Assembly: GCA_024742735.1 (NCBI GenBank) | Contig: JANSXV010000006.1 | Span: 11,213-75,212 of the forward strand | DNA from: Alphaproteobacteria bacterium | GTDB taxonomy: Bacteria > Pseudomonadota > Alphaproteobacteria > Caulobacterales > Maricaulaceae | Length of the DNA stretch: 64,000 nt | Direction: 5' to 3' | Shown: one piece after another, positions 10,285-13,970 of the stretch | How the letters are laid out: each line of letters opens with the position of its first letter | Position numbering within the stretch: the stretch's first letter is position 1 | The notes under the pieces: model-generated | What the model saw: the letters and a program-made list of their open reading frames with translations, nothing else | Told to the model about the DNA's origin: nothing | Databases searched by the model: none | Program-made: the position numbers and the translations under genes

Positions 10285-10602
10285 TCAGAATTTCTCCGGC
10301 CGCAGCACCTCGACATCATCAATATAGACGATGCCGGACTGCTTCTTCAGATACTTTTCTGCGACAGCTTCGGCGATGCGTTCGGCGGCGGCGCGGTCCT
10401 TCACGATCACCTCGATGCGCGACAGGGAGAAGCCCTGGATCACCGAGGGGCGCGAGCCGCCCGGATGCATGCCGTGGGCGCCTTTGCCGCTGCAGTCGAT
10501 GACGGTGTAGCCCTTCGCGCCTTCTTCTTCGACGACGGCGCAGACCTTGTCGCGCATGAGCTGCTCGACGACGAGGACGATTTTCGTGGCCTTGTGGAAC
10601 AT
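10285..10602 (-). CDS. sbtB: PII-like SbtB-type regulator
   Basis: 105 aa, GAKGYTVIDCSGKG, RIEVIV, GIVYIDDVEVLRPEKF; immediately downstream of an sbtA-like gene. Confidence 0.8.
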   Translation of the reverse strand: MFHKATKIVLVVEQLMRDKVCAVVEEEGAKGYTVIDCSGKGAHGMHPGGSRPSVIQGFSLSRIEVIVKDRAAAERIAEAVAEKYLKKQSGIVYIDDVEVLRPEKF

Positions 10603-10630
10603 GGTTGAAAGCTCCGGCTTGAGGTCAGTC

Positions 10631-11638
10631 TTACAGATTGAAGACGAGTTGGGCGAGGGCGACATAGAGCGGAATGCCCACGGCGATGGCGATGGGCGTG
10701 CCGACGGCCGTGGACGAGCCGACATAGGCGGAAGGGTTCGCGCCCGGGATCGCCGCCCGCAGGGTCGGCGGGCCCGAGATGTCCGAGCTGGATCCGGCCA
10801 TGACGGCCAGCAGCACCACCCCGCCCGGGCTGAAGCCCGTCATCACATGGGCGATATAGCCAAGGCCGAAGGCGGCCAGGCCATGCACGAGCGGGCTGAC
10901 GGCGGCGTAGACGGCGTACCAGTGGGCCACCTTGGCGAGCTCGGCCATGCGCGACCAGGCTTCCATGCCCAGGATCAGCATCAGGATGGAGAGCAGGCCG
11001 CGGAAGAGCGGATCGTAGAAGCTCTCAACAACGCTGTCCGGCTGGGTCAGAAGACCCAGCGCCAGGCCGAGCATGAGCGCGGACAGGGCCGAGCCCTTCA
11101 TGGAGTCCACGACGATGCCCTTGAAGTCGACCTTCTCGCCCGCCGCGCCTTCGGCGCGCTGCTTGGCGATGCCGGCCAGAACGATGGCGGCCAGCAGGGC
11201 TGGCAGGTCCATGAAGGGATAAAGGGCGGGCACCCAGGCTTCGAAGGGGATTTCCGCTTCATCCAGCACCACCATGGCGGCGGCGAGCGTGGAGGCGGAC
11301 ACCGCGCCGAACAGGCCGGCCGTGGCGTAGCCGTCCTCGGCCTGAAGCCTGGGCAGGCGGGTCAGCAGCCCTGCGCCGACCATGACGATGCCAACGCCCA
11401 GGACGACTGCGAACAAGGCCGGCAGCAGCATTTGTCCCAGATCGGCCTGGCGGATCTCCATGCCGGCCTCCATGCCGATGGTGATCAGCAACATGAAGAC
11501 GATGAAGCGGTAGATCGGATCGGGAATGGTCAGCTTGCTGCCGAGCGCGGCGATGAGCATGCCGCCGATAAGGAAGGCGAGCGTCGGCTTCTGAAACTGC
11601 GACACGAAGGTGGTCGCGAAATCGGTAATGACGTCCAT
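10631..11638 (-). CDS. sbtA: Sodium-dependent bicarbonate transporter family permease
   Basis: About ten TM helices, GLFGAVSAST, GSSSDISGPPTLRAAIPGANPSAYVGSSTAVGTP. Confidence 0.88.
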   Translation of the reverse strand: MDVITDFATTFVSQFQKPTLAFLIGGMLIAALGSKLTIPDPIYRFIVFMLLITIGMEAGMEIRQADLGQMLLPALFAVVLGVGIVMVGAGLLTRLPRLQAEDGYATAGLFGAVSASTLAAAMVVLDEAEIPFEAWVPALYPFMDLPALLAAIVLAGIAKQRAEGAAGEKVDFKGIVVDSMKGSALSALMLGLALGLLTQPDSVVESFYDPLFRGLLSILMLILGMEAWSRMAELAKVAHWYAVYAAVSPLVHGLAAFGLGYIAHVMTGFSPGGVVLLAVMAGSSSDISGPPTLRAAIPGANPSAYVGSSTAVGTPIAIAVGIPLYVALAQLVFNL

Positions 11639-11720
11639 GACGGCTCTCCGGACTGGATCAGTGTCAGCCGCGGAGATAGGCGATCAATTTAGTTATATAA
11701 AATACAATGATTGAATGATA

Positions 11721-11741
11721 TTGTTCTGCTTTAACGAACAA
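11721..11741. promoter_or_regulatory. LysR-type operator palindrome
   Basis: TTGTTC-N9-GAACAA containing T-N11-A, in the AT-rich divergent sbtA/lysR spacer. Confidence 0.65.
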
Positions 11742-11751
11742 AGACGATGCC

Positions 11752-12618
11752 ATGAACTACAAGCACCTGCGCTATTTCCGGGCTGTGGCCCATGAAGGCC
11801 GGCTTACCAAGGCGGCCGAAACGCTGAACCTGTCCCAGTCGGCCCTGTCCACCCAGATCCGCCAGCTTGAGGCTCAGCTGGGCCATGACCTGTTCGAGCG
11901 CCAGGGCCGCACGCTCGTCCTGACCGAGGCCGGGCGGGTCGCGCTGGATTATGCCGACATGATCTTCGCGGCCGGAGACGAGCTGGAAAGCACGCTGAAG
12001 GGCGGTGCTGGAGCTGGCCGCAGAGTGCTGAATGTCGGCGCCCTGGCCACGCTGTCACGGAATTTCCAGACCGACCTGCTCGCCCCGCTCGTGGCGTCCG
12101 GCGAAGCCGAAGTGCACCTGCGGTCAGGCTCCTTGCCGGAGCTGATGGATGCGCTCGAGGCCCATAATCTTGATCTGGTGCTGGCCAACCAGGCGCCGGT
12201 CCGCGACGCCGGCAGCGCCTGGACCGTTCACCGTCTGGCCGAGCAGAAGGTCAGCCTGATCGGCACGCCGCAACGGCTCGGCGAGGGGGGCGGCGTGCAG
12301 ACGCTGCTGTCGTCCCACCCATTGATCCTGCCATCCCGGCGCAGCGGCGTGAGGTCCGGCTTCGACGCCCTGGCCATGCGCTTGGGGCTGAGCCCCGTCA
12401 TCGCCGCAGAAGTGGACGACATGGCGATGCTGCGCCTGTTTGCGCGCAATGACGCCGGCCTCGCCGTCGCGCCGCCCATCGTCGTGCGCGACGAGCTGGC
12501 GAGCGGGCGCCTGGTGGAGGCCGCCGAGCTGCCGGAGATCGCGGAAACCTTCTATGCCATCACGCTGGAGCGGCGCTTTCCGAACCCGCTTGTGGCCCAG
12601 GTGCTTGCAAGCGCGTAA
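11752..12618 (+). CDS. LysR family regulator (NhaR-like), divergent from sbtAB
   Basis: MNYKHLRYFRAVAHEG..TKAAETLNLSQSALSTQIRQLE HTH; substrate-binding domain with EVDDMAMLRLFA. Confidence 0.93.
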   Translation: MNYKHLRYFRAVAHEGRLTKAAETLNLSQSALSTQIRQLEAQLGHDLFERQGRTLVLTEAGRVALDYADMIFAAGDELESTLKGGAGAGRRVLNVGALATLSRNFQTDLLAPLVASGEAEVHLRSGSLPELMDALEAHNLDLVLANQAPVRDAGSAWTVHRLAEQKVSLIGTPQRLGEGGGVQTLLSSHPLILPSRRSGVRSGFDALAMRLGLSPVIAAEVDDMAMLRLFARNDAGLAVAPPIVVRDELASGRLVEAAELPEIAETFYAITLERRFPNPLVAQVLASA

Positions 12619-12694
12619 GGCGCGGCCGATTGCGTCCGCTCCGGCATGAGCGCGGACTTGTGGCCGATCTGTCTGTCCATGACCTCCAGGCCGC

Positions 12695-12723
12695 TTGCGT
12701 GTCCGCATCGCCGTGCCCATAAT
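12695..12723 (+). promoter_or_regulatory. sigma70-type promoter for leader peptide-rsgA
   Basis: TTGCGT-N17-CATAAT. Confidence 0.6.
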
Positions 12724-12762
12724 GATCGAGTCGTCAACGCCTGCTGAAGGAGGGCGGTTTTC

Positions 12763-12819
12763 ATGGCCATTGTATTCGCCCTTCGGGCCGGCGTGACCGG
12801 TCTGCCCGTCCGCGCGTAA
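12763..12819 (+). CDS. Putative 18-aa leader peptide MAIVFALRAGVTGLPVRA
   Basis: AAGGAGG ribosome-binding site, ATG...TAA, lies between promoter and rsgA; too short for the ORF track. Confidence 0.6.
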   Translation: MAIVFALRAGVTGLPVRA

Positions 12820-12926
12820 GCGGCGGCAGGCCTTTCCGTCAGCCCTGATCGCTTCGCCGCACCGGTCAGCGCCGGCGTGGCCGTGATTTCGCCTGCATGT
12901 TCATGCGGGCCTGACGGACAAGACAA

Positions 12927-13970
12927 TTGACCCACTACACTCTCTCCGAGCTGGGCGTGCGCCCGGCCATGCTCGCCCATCTCGACCTTGAAACTGAAAC
13001 CCCCGATGATCTGGCCCGGGTATCCGCGGTTCATCGCGACGCGCTGGAGGTCCTGACCCAGAACGGACCCGCCCGCCTGCGCCACGCGCCTTTTGACGAT
13101 CCGGAGGACCGCCCTACCGTCGGCGATGTCGTTCTCATCGACCGCGCCCTGGAGCGGCCCGCACGGGTGCTGCCGCGCACCAGCGTGTTCAAGCGCAAGG
13201 CGGCGGGCGTGGAGGCGAAGATTCAGCTGATCGCGGCCAATATCGATACGGGCTTCATCGTCAGCTCCTGCAACGCTGATTTCAAACCAGCGCGCCTGGA
13301 ACGCTATCTCGCCATGGTGCGCGAAGCCGGCGCCGAGCCGGTCATCCTGCTGACCAAGGCCGATCTCGCAGATCCGGCGCCGTATCTCGAGGCCGCGCGG
13401 CGGATCGCCGGCGACGCGCTCGTCGAAGCGGTGAACGCTCTGGACGCCGGGGACCTCACGAAACTATCGCCGTGGACCAGAGCCGGTCAGACGGCCGCGC
13501 TGATCGGATCCTCGGGTGTCGGCAAGACAACCCTCGTCAATACGCTGACCGGCGTTGGAGCCGCCACCGGCGGGATCCGCGAGGATGACGCGAAGGGCCG
13601 CCATACGACGCGTGGGCGGACGTTGCACCGAATGGTGTCCGGCGGCTTTCTTGTCGACACGCCAGGCCTGCGCGAGCTCGCGCTGGCGGGGGTGGACGCG
13701 GGCCTGTCCGCGACGTTCGAAGACCTCGCCGAACTGGAGATGCGCTGCCGCTTCGCCGACTGCACCCATCACGGTGAACCGGGATGTGCGATCGAGGCGG
13801 CGCTTGCGGCCGGCGAGATCGATCCGGACCGATGGCGGCGTTTCGAAAAGCTCAAGCGCGAAGCGGCCCGCAACGACGCCACACTGAAAGAGCGCCGTGA
13901 CGCCAGCAAGGCGCAGGGCAAGCTCTACAGGCGCATTCAGGACGAGCACCGCAAGAGCAAGGGGCGATGA
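12927..13970 (+). CDS. rsgA: RsgA/YjeQ-family circularly permuted GTPase (long paralogue)
   Basis: TKAD (G4), GSSGVGKTT (G1), GRHTT, DTPG (G3), Zn site CRFADCTHHGEPGC; TTG start. Confidence 0.92.
   Translation: MTHYTLSELGVRPAMLAHLDLETETPDDLARVSAVHRDALEVLTQNGPARLRHAPFDDPEDRPTVGDVVLIDRALERPARVLPRTSVFKRKAAGVEAKIQLIAANIDTGFIVSSCNADFKPARLERYLAMVREAGAEPVILLTKADLADPAPYLEAARRIAGDALVEAVNALDAGDLTKLSPWTRAGQTAALIGSSGVGKTTLVNTLTGVGAATGGIREDDAKGRHTTRGRTLHRMVSGGFLVDTPGLRELALAGVDAGLSATFEDLAELEMRCRFADCTHHGEPGCAIEAALAAGEIDPDRWRRFEKLKREAARNDATLKERRDASKAQGKLYRRIQDEHRKSKGR

What the first reader, a model, noticed from the sequence alone, without database searches (positions are those of the whole stretch)
12695..12929. 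Promoter + 18-aa leader peptide + mutually exclusive RNA helices controlling an RsgA paralogue
Seen, in order: TTGCGT-N17-CATAAT, AAGGAGG, a uORF MAIVFALRAGVTGLPVRA (12763-12819), then a weak TTG start for rsgA. Helix A pairs uORF codons 12787-12801 with 12861-12876 (15 bp, one bulge). Helix B pairs 12835-12845 with 12907-12918 and covers the GGA upstream of the TTG. A and B cross, and hairpin C (12891-12910) competes with B. Established: leader-peptide attenuators make ribosome-rescue genes (hflXr, ABC-F, PA5471) respond to ribosome stalling. Inference: this RsgA paralogue is induced or repressed by ribosome stalling, for example by antibiotics, and may be a 30S repair or resistance factor. 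I cannot determine the direction of the switch by eye.
Basis: partly seen in the sequence, partly recalled or inferred. Interest (0 to 1): 0.65.

Follow-up and report, generated by a model that had tools for sequence, protein, structure and literature searches.

The report
Conserved uORF switch before rsgA
The 200 bases in front of this marine bacterium's only gene for the ribosome-assembly GTPase RsgA are one copy of a widespread, apparently undescribed RNA switch, in which a ribosome sitting at the start of a tiny 18-codon reading frame most likely opens the rsgA ribosome-binding site, so RsgA output would follow how quickly ribosomes get going.

Summary

- **Conservation in the genus.** Promoter, uORF frame and rsgA start are kept in all six other Oceanicaulis-type orthologues. 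Starts are ATG or GTG, all three stop codons occur, and one copy has an in-frame 6-nt deletion.
- **Conservation beyond the genus.** A related uORF precedes RsgA homologues across alpha-, gamma- and delta-proteobacteria. I found 71 distinct copies with consensus M-(x)-I-V-x3-R-A9-G10.
- **Corrections.** This is the genome's only rsgA, not a paralogue. It is accessory in the genus: 21 of 27 species lack it. Helix A costs 8.5-15 kcal/mol and is unlikely to operate. The real competitor of helix B is uORF codons 8-12 (12785-12796), pairing with B's 5' arm (12835-12845).
- **Direction of the switch.** Ribosome-position folding over 71 leaders (p about 5e-10, replicated on a second set of loci) predicts the rsgA start site is open only when a ribosome sits on uORF codons 1-3. 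In this window the opening cost falls from 11.7 to about 3-4 kcal/mol.

All of this is computed. There are no expression data, and the signal (antibiotic, immature 30S, starvation) is unknown.

The parts
12695..12723 (+). Promoter: -35 TTGCGT (12695-12700), 17-nt spacer, -10 CATAAT (12718-12723). The transcript start is inferred near 12729-12730.
   Evidence: Read. CTTGC and CAT(A/G)nT are invariant at the same spacing in 7 of 7 Oceanicaulis-type leaders. It falls below the threshold of the consensus scan. The start site is inferred, not mapped.
12747..12753 (+). Shine-Dalgarno sequence AAGGAGG of the uORF, 9 nt before the ATG. This is segment 0 of the switch.
   Evidence: A strong SD at 5-12 nt is present in the 71 family members, partly by the way they were selected.
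12749..12784 (+). Hairpin H1: GGAGGGCGG (12749-12757) pairs with UCGCCCUUC (12776-12784, uORF codons 5-8). The uORF start codon and AUUGU lie in the loop, so the uORF's own SD is sequestered.
   Evidence: Minimum-energy fold and RNAalifold consensus. The SD:anti-SD tendency is family-wide: mean z = -0.90, t = -6.3, with covarying variants such as CUGGUUAGG:CCUAACCGG.
12763..12819 (+). Leader ORF (uORF), 18 codons, MAIVFALRAGVTGLPVRA, stop TAA.
   Evidence: Kept in frame in 7 of 7 close orthologues: ATG or GTG starts, TAA/TAG/TGA stops, one in-frame 6-nt deletion. 71 distinct family members.
12769..12773 (+). Invariant AUUGU (Ile3-Val4). It is complementary to ACAAU at 12923-12927, which overlaps the rsgA start.
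   Evidence: ATTGT occurs in 54 of 71 uORFs, always 3, 6 or 9 nt after the A of ATG. The Ile codon is ATT 54 times and ATC once. Direct uORF:start-region duplexes include 9 bp UUGUCAUUG:CAAUGACAA in L061; for the window z = -2.55.
12785..12796 (+). Segment 1 (anti-sequestor): GGGCCGGCGUGA, uORF codons 8-12. It pairs with 12835-12845 and resembles segment 3 (GGGCCUGACGG).
   Evidence: It appears in the best fold when a ribosome is placed on codons 2-5. 95% of cells are paired in 6 orthologues, against 33-60% in slid controls. Kept in L104, L014 and L015 despite changes.
12799..12832 (+). Hairpin H2 (12799-12813 with 12820-12832). The uORF stop codon 12817-12819 lies in the apical loop. Segments 1 and 2 flank it, so 1:2 is its basal extension.
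   Evidence: It folds in 7 of 7 orthologues with different arm sequences, and the stop codon is always in the loop.
12835..12845 (+).
   Evidence: Family-wide shared-partner test: mean z = -0.97, t = -6.6.
12847..12888 (+). Inner hairpin H3a of the three-way junction (12847-12852:12883-12888 and 12856-12866:12871-12881).
   Evidence: Helix A is conserved as sequence but energetically disfavoured.
12891..12910 (+). Hairpin C (H3b), 8 bp. It overlaps helix B at 12907-12910.
   Evidence: Its arms differ between orthologues while the pairing is kept; 3 of its pairs show changes on both sides.
12907..12918 (+). Segment 3: GGGCCUGACGGA, the 3' arm of helix B. It includes the weak SD-like GGA (12916-12918), 8 nt before the TTG.
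   Evidence: GCCTGACGGA is invariant in 7 of 7 orthologues. 90.9% of cells are paired.
12927..13970 (+). rsgA, 347 aa, TTG start: a small-subunit biogenesis GTPase.
   Evidence: TIGR00157 scores 126.6 bits (cut-off 100) and PF03193 scores 143 bits. The start column holds TTG/TTG/GTG/ATG/ATG/GTG. It is the only copy in the genome.

Best explanation
This is a leader-peptide (uORF) translational switch that controls rsgA. The transcript starts near 12730 and carries four interacting segments:
- Segment 0: the uORF Shine-Dalgarno sequence.
- Segment 1: uORF codons 5-12.
- Segment 2: 12835-12845.
- Segment 3: 12907-12918, next to the rsgA start.

Off state. On naked RNA, 0:1 (hairpin H1) hides the uORF's own SD, and 2:3 (helix B) closes a three-way junction on the rsgA ribosome-binding region. 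AUUGU in the H1 loop can also pair with ACAAU at the rsgA start.

On state. A ribosome on the uORF SD and start codon, or on the first three codons, holds segment 0 and leaves segment 1 free just beyond its 3' edge. Segment 1 then zips onto segment 2 as the basal extension of hairpin H2. Segment 3 and the TTG start are left open, and rsgA can be translated.

Reset. Once the ribosome moves past about codon 4 it covers segment 1, segment 2 returns to segment 3, and the site closes again.

Consequence. RsgA synthesis would scale with the time ribosomes dwell at the start or the first codons of the uORF.

Shown computationally: conservation of the parts, the competing pairings, and the dependence on ribosome position.

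Inferred: that the uORF is translated in vivo, the kinetics, and the physiological signal that lengthens the dwell. Candidates are immature or defective 30S subunits, initiation- or early-elongation-blocking antibiotics, and Ile/Val-tRNA shortage.
For: 1. The uORF is real.
- It is kept in frame with ATG/GTG starts, all three stop codons and an in-frame 6-nt deletion in 7 of 7 Oceanicaulis-type orthologues, although the upstream genes differ.
- There are 71 distinct homologous uORFs upstream of RsgA homologues of 43-86% identity from alpha-, gamma- and delta-proteobacteria.
- ATTGT lies only 3, 6 or 9 nt after the ATG. Ala is at codon 9 in 48 of 71, using all four Ala codons.

2. The pairings.
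- H1, H2, helix B and its inner hairpins are in the minimum-energy fold and the alifold consensus.
- H2 covaries, with the stop codon always in its loop.
- The 1:2 helix is 95% paired and helix B 91% paired in orthologues, against 29-60% in slid controls.
- Family-wide statistics support SD:anti-SD pairing (t = -6.3) and a segment complementary to both the uORF and the rsgA start region (t = -6.6).

3. Direction. The measure is the cost of opening the rsgA site from -13 to +5.
- 48 leaders: 9.1 kcal/mol free; 7.1, 7.1 and 6.8 with the P-site on codons 1-3; 9.1-9.7 from codon 9 on (p = 2e-6).
- Shuffling the uORF region abolishes the effect: +2.04 against -0.2 kcal/mol, p = 2.4e-5.
- 23 further leaders from metagenomes, distinct in sequence from the first set: 10.8 free, 6.5-7.0 on codons 1-3, 10.2 on codon 10 (p = 1.5e-4).
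- Folding only the RNA 3' of the ribosome, 71 leaders: 9.7 free, 6.4-6.7 on codons 1-3, 8.6-8.7 later (p about 5e-10).
- This window under that model: 11.7 free; 4.2, 3.6 and 3.0 on codons 1-3; 7.0 on codon 4; 11.3 on codon 7; 10.8 on the last codon.
Against: - There are no transcript, ribosome-footprint or reporter data.
- The result rests on nearest-neighbour thermodynamics and an assumed ribosome footprint.
- L011 and L015 show little change.
- Within Oceanicaulis the key helices B and 1:2 show no double-sided compensatory change.
- The leaders are phylogenetically related, so the p-values overstate independence.
- The uORF's own SD is locked in a -16 kcal/mol duplex, so loading must be co-transcriptional or by breathing. 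This is assumed.
- Ala9-Gly10 at a fixed codon number, with all four Ala codons, could mean a nascent-peptide effect that this model ignores.
Confidence: 0.6

Rival explanations
1. An erm-type attenuator. A drug- or peptide-dependent stall with the conserved R8-A9-G10 in the peptidyl-transferase centre (P-site codon 9-10) rearranges the leader and opens the rsgA site. The nascent peptide, not the RNA alone, is the sensor.
For: - Ala9 (48 of 71) and Gly10 (36 of 71) sit at a fixed codon number from the ATG, while the Ile-Val motif floats between codons 2 and 4.
- All four Ala codons are used.
- uORF lengths of 11-18 codons and a critical position at 9-10 recall ErmCL and ErmBL (my own knowledge).
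- An RsgA paralogue is antibiotic-induced in S. coelicolor (PMC7157823).
Against: - A ribosome placed on codon 9, 10 or 12 does not lower the opening cost of the rsgA site relative to free RNA in any model or set (free against codon 10 is not significant).
- The codon 8-10 nucleotides (CGG GCN GG) are themselves the strand that pairs with segment 2, which explains the fixed distance without invoking a peptide.
- The SecM-like RAG is not followed by Pro.
Confidence: 0.13
2. An RNA-only element. The conserved nucleotides form a protein- or ligand-binding structured leader, for example autoregulation by RsgA or by a ribosomal protein through rRNA mimicry. The open frame is incidental or only weakly translated.
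For: - Conservation at nucleotide level: the Ile codon is ATT 54 times and ATC once in GC-rich genomes, and the Arg codon is CGG in 27 of 31.
- The SD is buried in H1.
- A stable three-way junction is conserved in Oceanicaulis.
Against: - Start and stop codons and the frame are maintained across 71 copies. ATTGT offsets are only multiples of 3. There is an in-frame indel. All three stop codons are used evenly.
- The region between the uORF and rsgA varies from about 60 to 180 nt with no conserved core.
- No Rfam family matches.
Confidence: 0.1
3. uORF translation acts through transcription (Rho-dependent or intrinsic termination inside the leader) or mRNA stability, rather than through access to the rsgA start.
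For: - Many bacterial uORF leaders work this way (tnaC, toiL/topAI in PMC12121999, vmlR in PMC9226507).
- The leader is long, and the uORF stop sits 15-19 nt before segment 2 in several subfamilies.
Against: - There is no terminator-like hairpin with a U-tract between the uORF and rsgA. The single terminator-like hit, 12741-12757, lies upstream of the ATG, against 0.4 expected by chance.
- The conserved pairings end on the rsgA SD and start region.
- The leader is highly structured and G+C-rich, which makes it a poor Rho loading site (inference).
Confidence: 0.06

Closest known systems
ermC / ermB / ermA leader-peptide translational attenuators
   Same: A short SD-preceded uORF, followed by mutually exclusive helices, one of which hides the SD and start of the regulated gene. 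The position of a ribosome on the uORF decides which helix forms. uORF length is similar.
   Different: - There the effective stall is drug-dependent at codon 8-10 and acts by covering segment 1. Here covering segment 1 is predicted to keep the gene off, and the on state needs a ribosome at the start or codons 1-3.
- The uORF's own SD is sequestered here.
- The regulated gene is a ribosome-assembly GTPase, not an rRNA methyltransferase.
- No drug dependence is shown.
Long-range translational coupling by unfolding (MS2 coat-replicase 'Min Jou' interaction)
   Same: Translation of an upstream frame melts a long-range pairing between that frame and the start region of a downstream cistron. In many family members uORF codons 2-8 pair directly with the rsgA SD and start.
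   Different: Here the upstream frame is a dedicated 11-18-codon uORF, about 100 nt or more from the gene. A second sequestor (segment 2) closes the site again once the ribosome moves on.
Antibiotic-sensing uORF leaders of ribosome-rescue or protection genes: toiL-topAI (PMC12121999), vmlR (PMC9226507), hflXr, whiB7/wblC (PMC7157823)
   Same: A uORF that reports trouble at the ribosome and controls a gene acting on translation. The WblC regulon of S. coelicolor contains a tetracycline-induced RsgA paralogue.
   Different: Those act mainly on transcription termination (intrinsic or Rho-dependent). None is described upstream of rsgA. There is no sequence similarity. Antibiotic responsiveness is untested here.
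Autogenous sensors of translation-factor activity (infC AUU start, prfB frameshift)
   Same: The logic is similar: expression of a factor of the translation apparatus is set by a cis element that measures the performance of the step in which the factor takes part.
   Different: The mechanism differs (start-codon discrimination, frameshifting). For rsgA the link between 30S quality and uORF dwell time is only a hypothesis.

Membership tests
Leader-peptide (uORF) translational attenuator | A short translated ORF with its own ribosome-binding site in the 5' leader of the regulated gene | tested here: met
   SD, start, stop and frame are conserved in 7 of 7 close orthologues and in 71 distinct family members. 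Translation itself is inferred from conservation and was not observed.
Leader-peptide (uORF) translational attenuator | Mutually exclusive RNA pairings, one of which sequesters the SD or start of the downstream gene and one of which involves the uORF | tested here: met
   Helix B (12835-12845:12907-12918) and 12785-12796:12835-12845 share one strand. Family-wide shared-partner test: t = -6.6.
Leader-peptide (uORF) translational attenuator | The position of the ribosome on the uORF changes the accessibility of the downstream start | tested here: met
   In silico only. The opening cost falls by 2-4 kcal/mol on average, and by about 8 in this window, with the P-site on codons 1-3. The effect is abolished by shuffling and was replicated.
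Leader-peptide (uORF) translational attenuator | A regulated ribosome stall in response to a defined signal (drug, amino acid, factor) | not testable with these tools
erm-type (stall at codon 8-10 opens the gene) | A ribosome covering segment 1 at codons 8-10 releases the downstream SD | tested here: not met
   The opening cost with the P-site on codon 9, 10 or 12 is not lower than for free RNA.
RsgA (YjeQ/EngC) small-subunit biogenesis GTPase | Match to the curated family model above its cut-off | tested here: met
   TIGR00157 scores 126.6 bits (cut-off 100) and PF03193 scores 143.2 bits (cut-off 30). It is below the cut-offs of the two PRK equivalogs, so this is a divergent clade.
RsgA (YjeQ/EngC) small-subunit biogenesis GTPase | Circularly permuted GTPase motif order (G4 before G1 and G3) and a C-terminal Cys/His zinc-finger motif | tested here: met
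   Invariant in alignment A2: T143-x-x-D146 (TKAD), G194SSGVGK200, D244TPG247, and C274, C279, H281, C287.
Known structured RNA family (Rfam 15) | Covariance-model match at or near the gathering score | tested here: not met
   In the window the best hits have E = 5 and E = 9.6, far below gathering. In 18 homologous loci the only match is SRP RNA upstream of the leader.
Intrinsic-terminator transcription attenuator | A G+C-rich hairpin followed by a U-tract between the uORF and the gene | tested here: not met
   None lies downstream of the uORF. The one terminator-like site, 12741-12757, is upstream of the ATG.
SecM-type RAGP arrest peptide | R-A-G followed by Pro at the arrest point | tested here: not met
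   The residue after R8-A9-G10 varies (V, E, A, R, G, C, Y and others) and is not a conserved Pro.

The most novel reading that the evidence does not exclude
The leader acts as a dwell-time sensor for the step from initiation to elongation. Ribosomes that bind the very strong uORF SD but leave the start codon slowly, for example 70S complexes built on immature or damaged 30S subunits, keep segment 1 free, so the rsgA site stays open and more RsgA is made. This would give a 30S-maturation GTPase direct homeostatic feedback from the quality of the 30S pool. The same circuit would be reused in gamma-proteobacteria to switch on a second, stress-specific RsgA.
Probability: 0.27. Interest if true: 0.85.

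Novelty: new variant of a known kind. Interest (0 to 1): 0.68.

Why it matters
RsgA is a late checkpoint GTPase of 30S assembly, and little is known about how its level is set. A conserved cis-acting switch in front of rsgA in many marine alpha-, gamma- and delta-proteobacteria, apparently absent from Rfam and from the literature I could search, would be a first handle on that question.

It would also be an unusual attenuator design:
- The uORF's own SD takes part in the switch.
- The informative ribosome position is the start codon and first codons rather than a mid-ORF arrest site.

If the signal turns out to be defective initiation complexes or initiation-blocking antibiotics, the element would be a natural reporter for that state. 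It would also support the idea that this RsgA clade is a conditional 30S repair factor. The clade is accessory in Oceanicaulis and a second copy in gamma-proteobacteria.

Tried and rejected
- **Rfam.** The E-value search on the window and the gathering search on 18 homologous loci found no family for the leader.
- **Consensus promoter scan.** It does not call the promoter, so its support is conservation only.
It is conserved as sequence, but forcing it costs 8.5-15 kcal/mol in every state. It arises from CCGG/GCCGGC palindromes. Rejected as the operative helix.
- **Interval-overlap test.** A crude test that the best uORF partner and the best start-region partner coincide gave 28 of 47 against 25.3 expected, not significant. 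I replaced it with a windowed shared-partner test.
- **First ribosome-mask model.** It allows pairs spanning the ribosome and gave only a weak effect for this window. The more physical model, which folds only the RNA 3' of the ribosome, gave a clear one.
- **Conserved gene neighbours of rsgA.** None beyond local synteny.
- **Pattern scan over 401 alpha-proteobacterial genomes.** It gave 5 genomes with chance-looking hits and was uninformative.
- **Exact leader pattern in metagenome contigs.** No hits.
- **Literature searches.** No paper describes an rsgA leader or uORF.
Full report
**1. Observation**

- TTGCGT 12695-12700, a 17-nt spacer, CATAAT 12718-12723.
- AAGGAGG 12747-12753, nine bases before ATG 12763.
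- An 18-codon frame, MAIVFALRAGVTGLPVRA, ending at TAA 12817-12819.
- rsgA starting at TTG 12927, the first start codon after an in-frame TGA at 12912.

Helix A (12787-12801 with 12861-12876) has 15 bp and one bulge, at -29.9 kcal/mol. Helix B (12835-12845 with 12907-12918) has 11 bp and one bulge, at -18.5 kcal/mol. Hairpin C (12891-12910) has 8 bp, at -11.5 kcal/mol, and overlaps B. The 216-nt leader folds to -104.2 kcal/mol, z = -4.0 against dinucleotide shuffles. The consensus promoter scan does not call the promoter, because the -35 hexamer matches only 3 of 6.

**2. The gene and its setting**

The protein is a bona fide RsgA.
- TIGR00157 scores 126.6 bits (cut-off 100) and PF03193 scores 143 bits.
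- The permuted order TKAD, then GSSGVGK, then DTPG, and the Cys/His zinc motif, are invariant in the alignment.

It is not a paralogue in this genome. A 100%-complete assembly holds one RsgA-domain gene.

The organism belongs to the genus Oceanicaulis (record titles). Only 6 of 27 species genomes of the genus carry the gene. Thirteen complete genomes checked with the Pfam model have no RsgA domain at all. So rsgA is an accessory gene here.

The clade is the sole RsgA in most alpha-proteobacteria tested. It is a second copy beside a canonical, higher-scoring RsgA in Shewanella, Reinekea, Saccharospirillum and Lamprobacter. No gene neighbour is conserved. In the window rsgA is monocistronic, between a LysR regulator and cobT on the other strand.

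**3. Conservation among close orthologues**

Five Oceanicaulis orthologues of 67-86% protein identity, plus a metagenomic one of 74% (L104), have different upstream genes but keep the same module.
- CTTGC and CAT(A/G)nT at the same spacing, and the SD.
- A uORF of 18 codons, or 16 in L015 through an in-frame 6-nt deletion.
- uORF starts ATG or GTG, and stops TAA, TAG or TGA.
- GCCTGACGGA, and the rsgA start column (TTG, TTG, GTG, ATG, ATG, GTG).

Hairpin H2 (12799-12832) folds in all seven with unrelated arm sequences. It always has the uORF stop codon in its apical loop. Helices A, B and 1:2 are kept (86%, 91% and 95% of cells paired, against 20-60% for slid controls) but show no double-sided changes at this divergence.

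**4. A family far beyond the genus**

I took 160 loci encoding RsgA homologues of 43-86% identity from genome and metagenome contigs. They yielded 71 distinct SD-preceded uORFs of 11-18 codons, 100-250 nt upstream of rsgA. The hosts include Maricaulaceae, Paracoccaceae/Rhodobacteraceae, Hyphomicrobiales, Thalassospiraceae, several gamma-proteobacterial groups and Desulfuromonas.

Examples are MIVAISLRATRG, MIVVVPQLAGEARLAA, MQAIVIHRAGART, MIVFDLNRAGVST and MEIVSLSGAKRGCVA.

Features of the family:
- ATTGT is present in 54 and lies only 3, 6 or 9 nt after the A of ATG.
- The Ile codon is ATT 54 times and ATC once, although the genomes are G+C-rich.
- Ala is at codon 9 in 48 of 71 (GCC 17, GCT 14, GCA 9, GCG 8). 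Gly is at codon 10 in 36. Arg is at codon 8 in 31 (CGG 27).
- The three stop codons are used about equally.

Loci without a uORF also lack ATTGT in the leader. The frame is therefore maintained, which argues for translation. Part of the conservation is at the RNA level.

**5. Architecture**

*Segments 0 and 1.* The uORF SD (segment 0) pairs with uORF codons 5-8: GGAGGGCGG with UCGCCCUUC in the window, hairpin H1. This tendency is family-wide (mean z = -0.90, t = -6.3). SD flanks covary, for example CUGGUUAGG with CCUAACCGG.

*Segments 2 and 3.* The rsgA SD and start region (segment 3) pairs with a segment 2 that lies 15-19 nt after the uORF stop in several subfamilies. The pairs are CCGUCAG:CUGACGG in Oceanicaulis, CAAGCC:GGCUUG or CUGCC:GGCAG in Rhodobacteraceae, and CACCAGC:GCUGGUG in another group.

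*Segment 1 against segment 3.* uORF codons 7-12 (segment 1) resemble segment 3 and can pair with the same segment 2.
- In the window, GGGCCGGCGUGA (12785-12796) pairs with UCCGUCAGCCC (12835-12845), 10 bp. This forms the basal extension of H2.
- In L014 a synonymous GCC-to-GCU change closes an internal loop of this helix.
- In L015 and L104, changes in segment 2 keep it paired.
- A windowed test shows that segment 1 is specifically complementary to a stretch that also pairs with the start region (mean z = -0.97, t = -6.6; 12 of 47 at p of 0.05 or less).

*Direct uORF-to-start pairing.* In many leaders the 5' part of the uORF pairs directly with the rsgA start. In L061 this is 9 bp, UUGUCAUUG with CAAUGACAA. 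In the window it is AUUGU 12769-73 with ACAAU 12923-27 (z = -2.55). The mean z is -0.89 over 48 leaders. This accounts for the invariant AUUGU and for the conserved 'CA AUG ACA' context of rsgA.

Forcing it costs 8.5-15 kcal/mol in every state.

**6. Direction of the switch**

I placed a ribosome footprint on successive uORF codons and computed the ensemble cost of opening rsgA positions -13 to +5.

| Model and set | Free RNA | P-site on codons 1-3 | Intermediate codons | Later codons | Test |
|---|---|---|---|---|---|
| Mask model, 48 leaders | 9.1 | 7.1, 7.1, 6.8 | 7.6 (codon 5) | 8.8-9.7 (codon 7 on) | free vs codon 1 p = 1.9e-6; codon 2 vs 10 p = 5e-7; free vs codon 10 not significant |
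| Mask model, 23 further metagenomic leaders | 10.8 | 7.0, 6.9, 6.5 | 7.9 (codon 5) | 10.2 (codon 10), 11.2 (last) | p = 1.5e-4 |
| Only RNA 3' of the ribosome folded, 71 leaders | 9.7 | 6.7, 6.4, 6.5 | 7.5, 8.0 (codons 4, 5) | 8.6-8.7 | p about 5e-10 |
| This window, same model | 11.7 | 4.2, 3.6, 3.0 | 7.0, 6.6 (codons 4, 5) | 11.3, 9.4, 10.8 | - |

All values are kcal/mol.
- Shuffling the uORF region removes the effect: +2.04 against about -0.2 kcal/mol, p = 2.4e-5.
- The third model is physically more cautious, because pairs cannot span a ribosome.
- Two close orthologues (L011, L015) respond little.

**7. Mechanism proposed**

*Off.* H1 (0:1) and helix B (2:3) are formed, and the H1 loop can touch the rsgA start.

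*On.* A ribosome holds the uORF SD and start codon or codons 1-3. Segment 1 starts about 16-22 nt after the ATG, just outside that footprint. It zips onto segment 2 next to H2, and the TTG region is free.

*Reset.* The ribosome moves on and covers segment 1, and segment 2 returns to segment 3.

RsgA synthesis would thus follow ribosome dwell time at the uORF start.

*Shown, computationally:* the parts, their conservation, the competition between pairings and the position dependence.

*Inferred:* translation in vivo, co-transcriptional loading onto an SD that otherwise sits in a -16 kcal/mol duplex, and the physiological signal.

**8. Rivals**

- *An erm-like stall at R8-A9-G10.* It is attractive because of the fixed codon number and the use of all four Ala codons. 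But a ribosome there does not open the site in any model.
- *An RNA-only protein or ligand site.* It is contradicted by frame maintenance and by the variable middle region.
- *Transcriptional attenuation.* There is no terminator between the uORF and rsgA.

**9. Comparison with what is known**

The kind is the leader-peptide translational attenuator (erm, cat) combined with long-range unfolding as in MS2.

The differences are the sequestered uORF SD, the start-proximal effective ribosome position, and the target gene.

Rfam 15 has no matching family. Full-text searches found no description of an rsgA leader. The nearest biological hint is a tetracycline/WblC-induced RsgA paralogue in S. coelicolor (PMC7157823).

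Earlier notes of this scan report similar rsgA leaders in other genomes. They agree with my reading, but they are not independent evidence.

**10. Limits**

- The thermodynamic models ignore kinetics and pseudoknots.
- The leaders are related, so the p-values are optimistic.
- uORFs were selected with a peptide pattern, which inflates the apparent uniformity of the N-terminus.

Noticed in passing
L026:2736-2832, L037:1485-1581, L048:2733-2829, L056:2740-2836, L091:2731-2827: In five Rhodobacteraceae/Paracoccaceae loci the SRP RNA gene (ffs, RF00169, 54-60 bits) ends only about 10-20 nt before the rsgA leader. There the uORF-rsgA unit sits directly downstream of 4.5S RNA and might be co-transcribed with it.
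   Followed up: no
window 10285-12618: Divergent from the LysR regulator (11752-12618, +) lie a Na+-dependent bicarbonate-transporter-family gene (PF05982, 10631-11638, -) and a P-II-family gene (PF00543, 10285-10725, -). The layout resembles SbtA/SbtB with a CbbR/CmpR-like regulator.
   Followed up: partly
genus level (G001-G042): 21 of 27 Oceanicaulis species genomes lack rsgA. Thirteen complete ones have no RsgA domain at all. The genus therefore mostly lives without this 30S assembly GTPase, and the gene with its leader sits at different chromosomal sites in the six carriers.
   Followed up: partly
L104:~420-480 and 588-600: The closest metagenomic relative has AGU instead of the otherwise invariant AUU (uORF MASVFALRAG...), and its rsgA begins AUG ACA CCU. 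GUGU:ACAC pairing with the rsgA start is possible, which would be a compensatory change for the uORF-to-start contact.
   Followed up: partly
window 12694-12723 and orthologues: The conserved promoter reads CTTGC-N17-(C/G/T)CAT(A/G)nT, with CCCATAAT in the window. This also resembles sigma-32-type heat-shock promoters (CTTG ... CCCCATNT). Sigma-factor assignment is open.
   Followed up: no
71 uORFs: The last residue of the leader peptide is Ala in 30 of 71, often as ..AA-stop or ..RA-stop. In Oceanicaulis the stop codon always sits in the loop of hairpin H2. I have no explanation for this.
   Followed up: no
window 12741-12757: The only terminator-like site in the region (a 5-bp stem followed by UUUUC) overlaps the uORF SD and lies before the ATG. 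It is probably just part of H1, but it could pause RNA polymerase at the point where the uORF start emerges.
   Followed up: no
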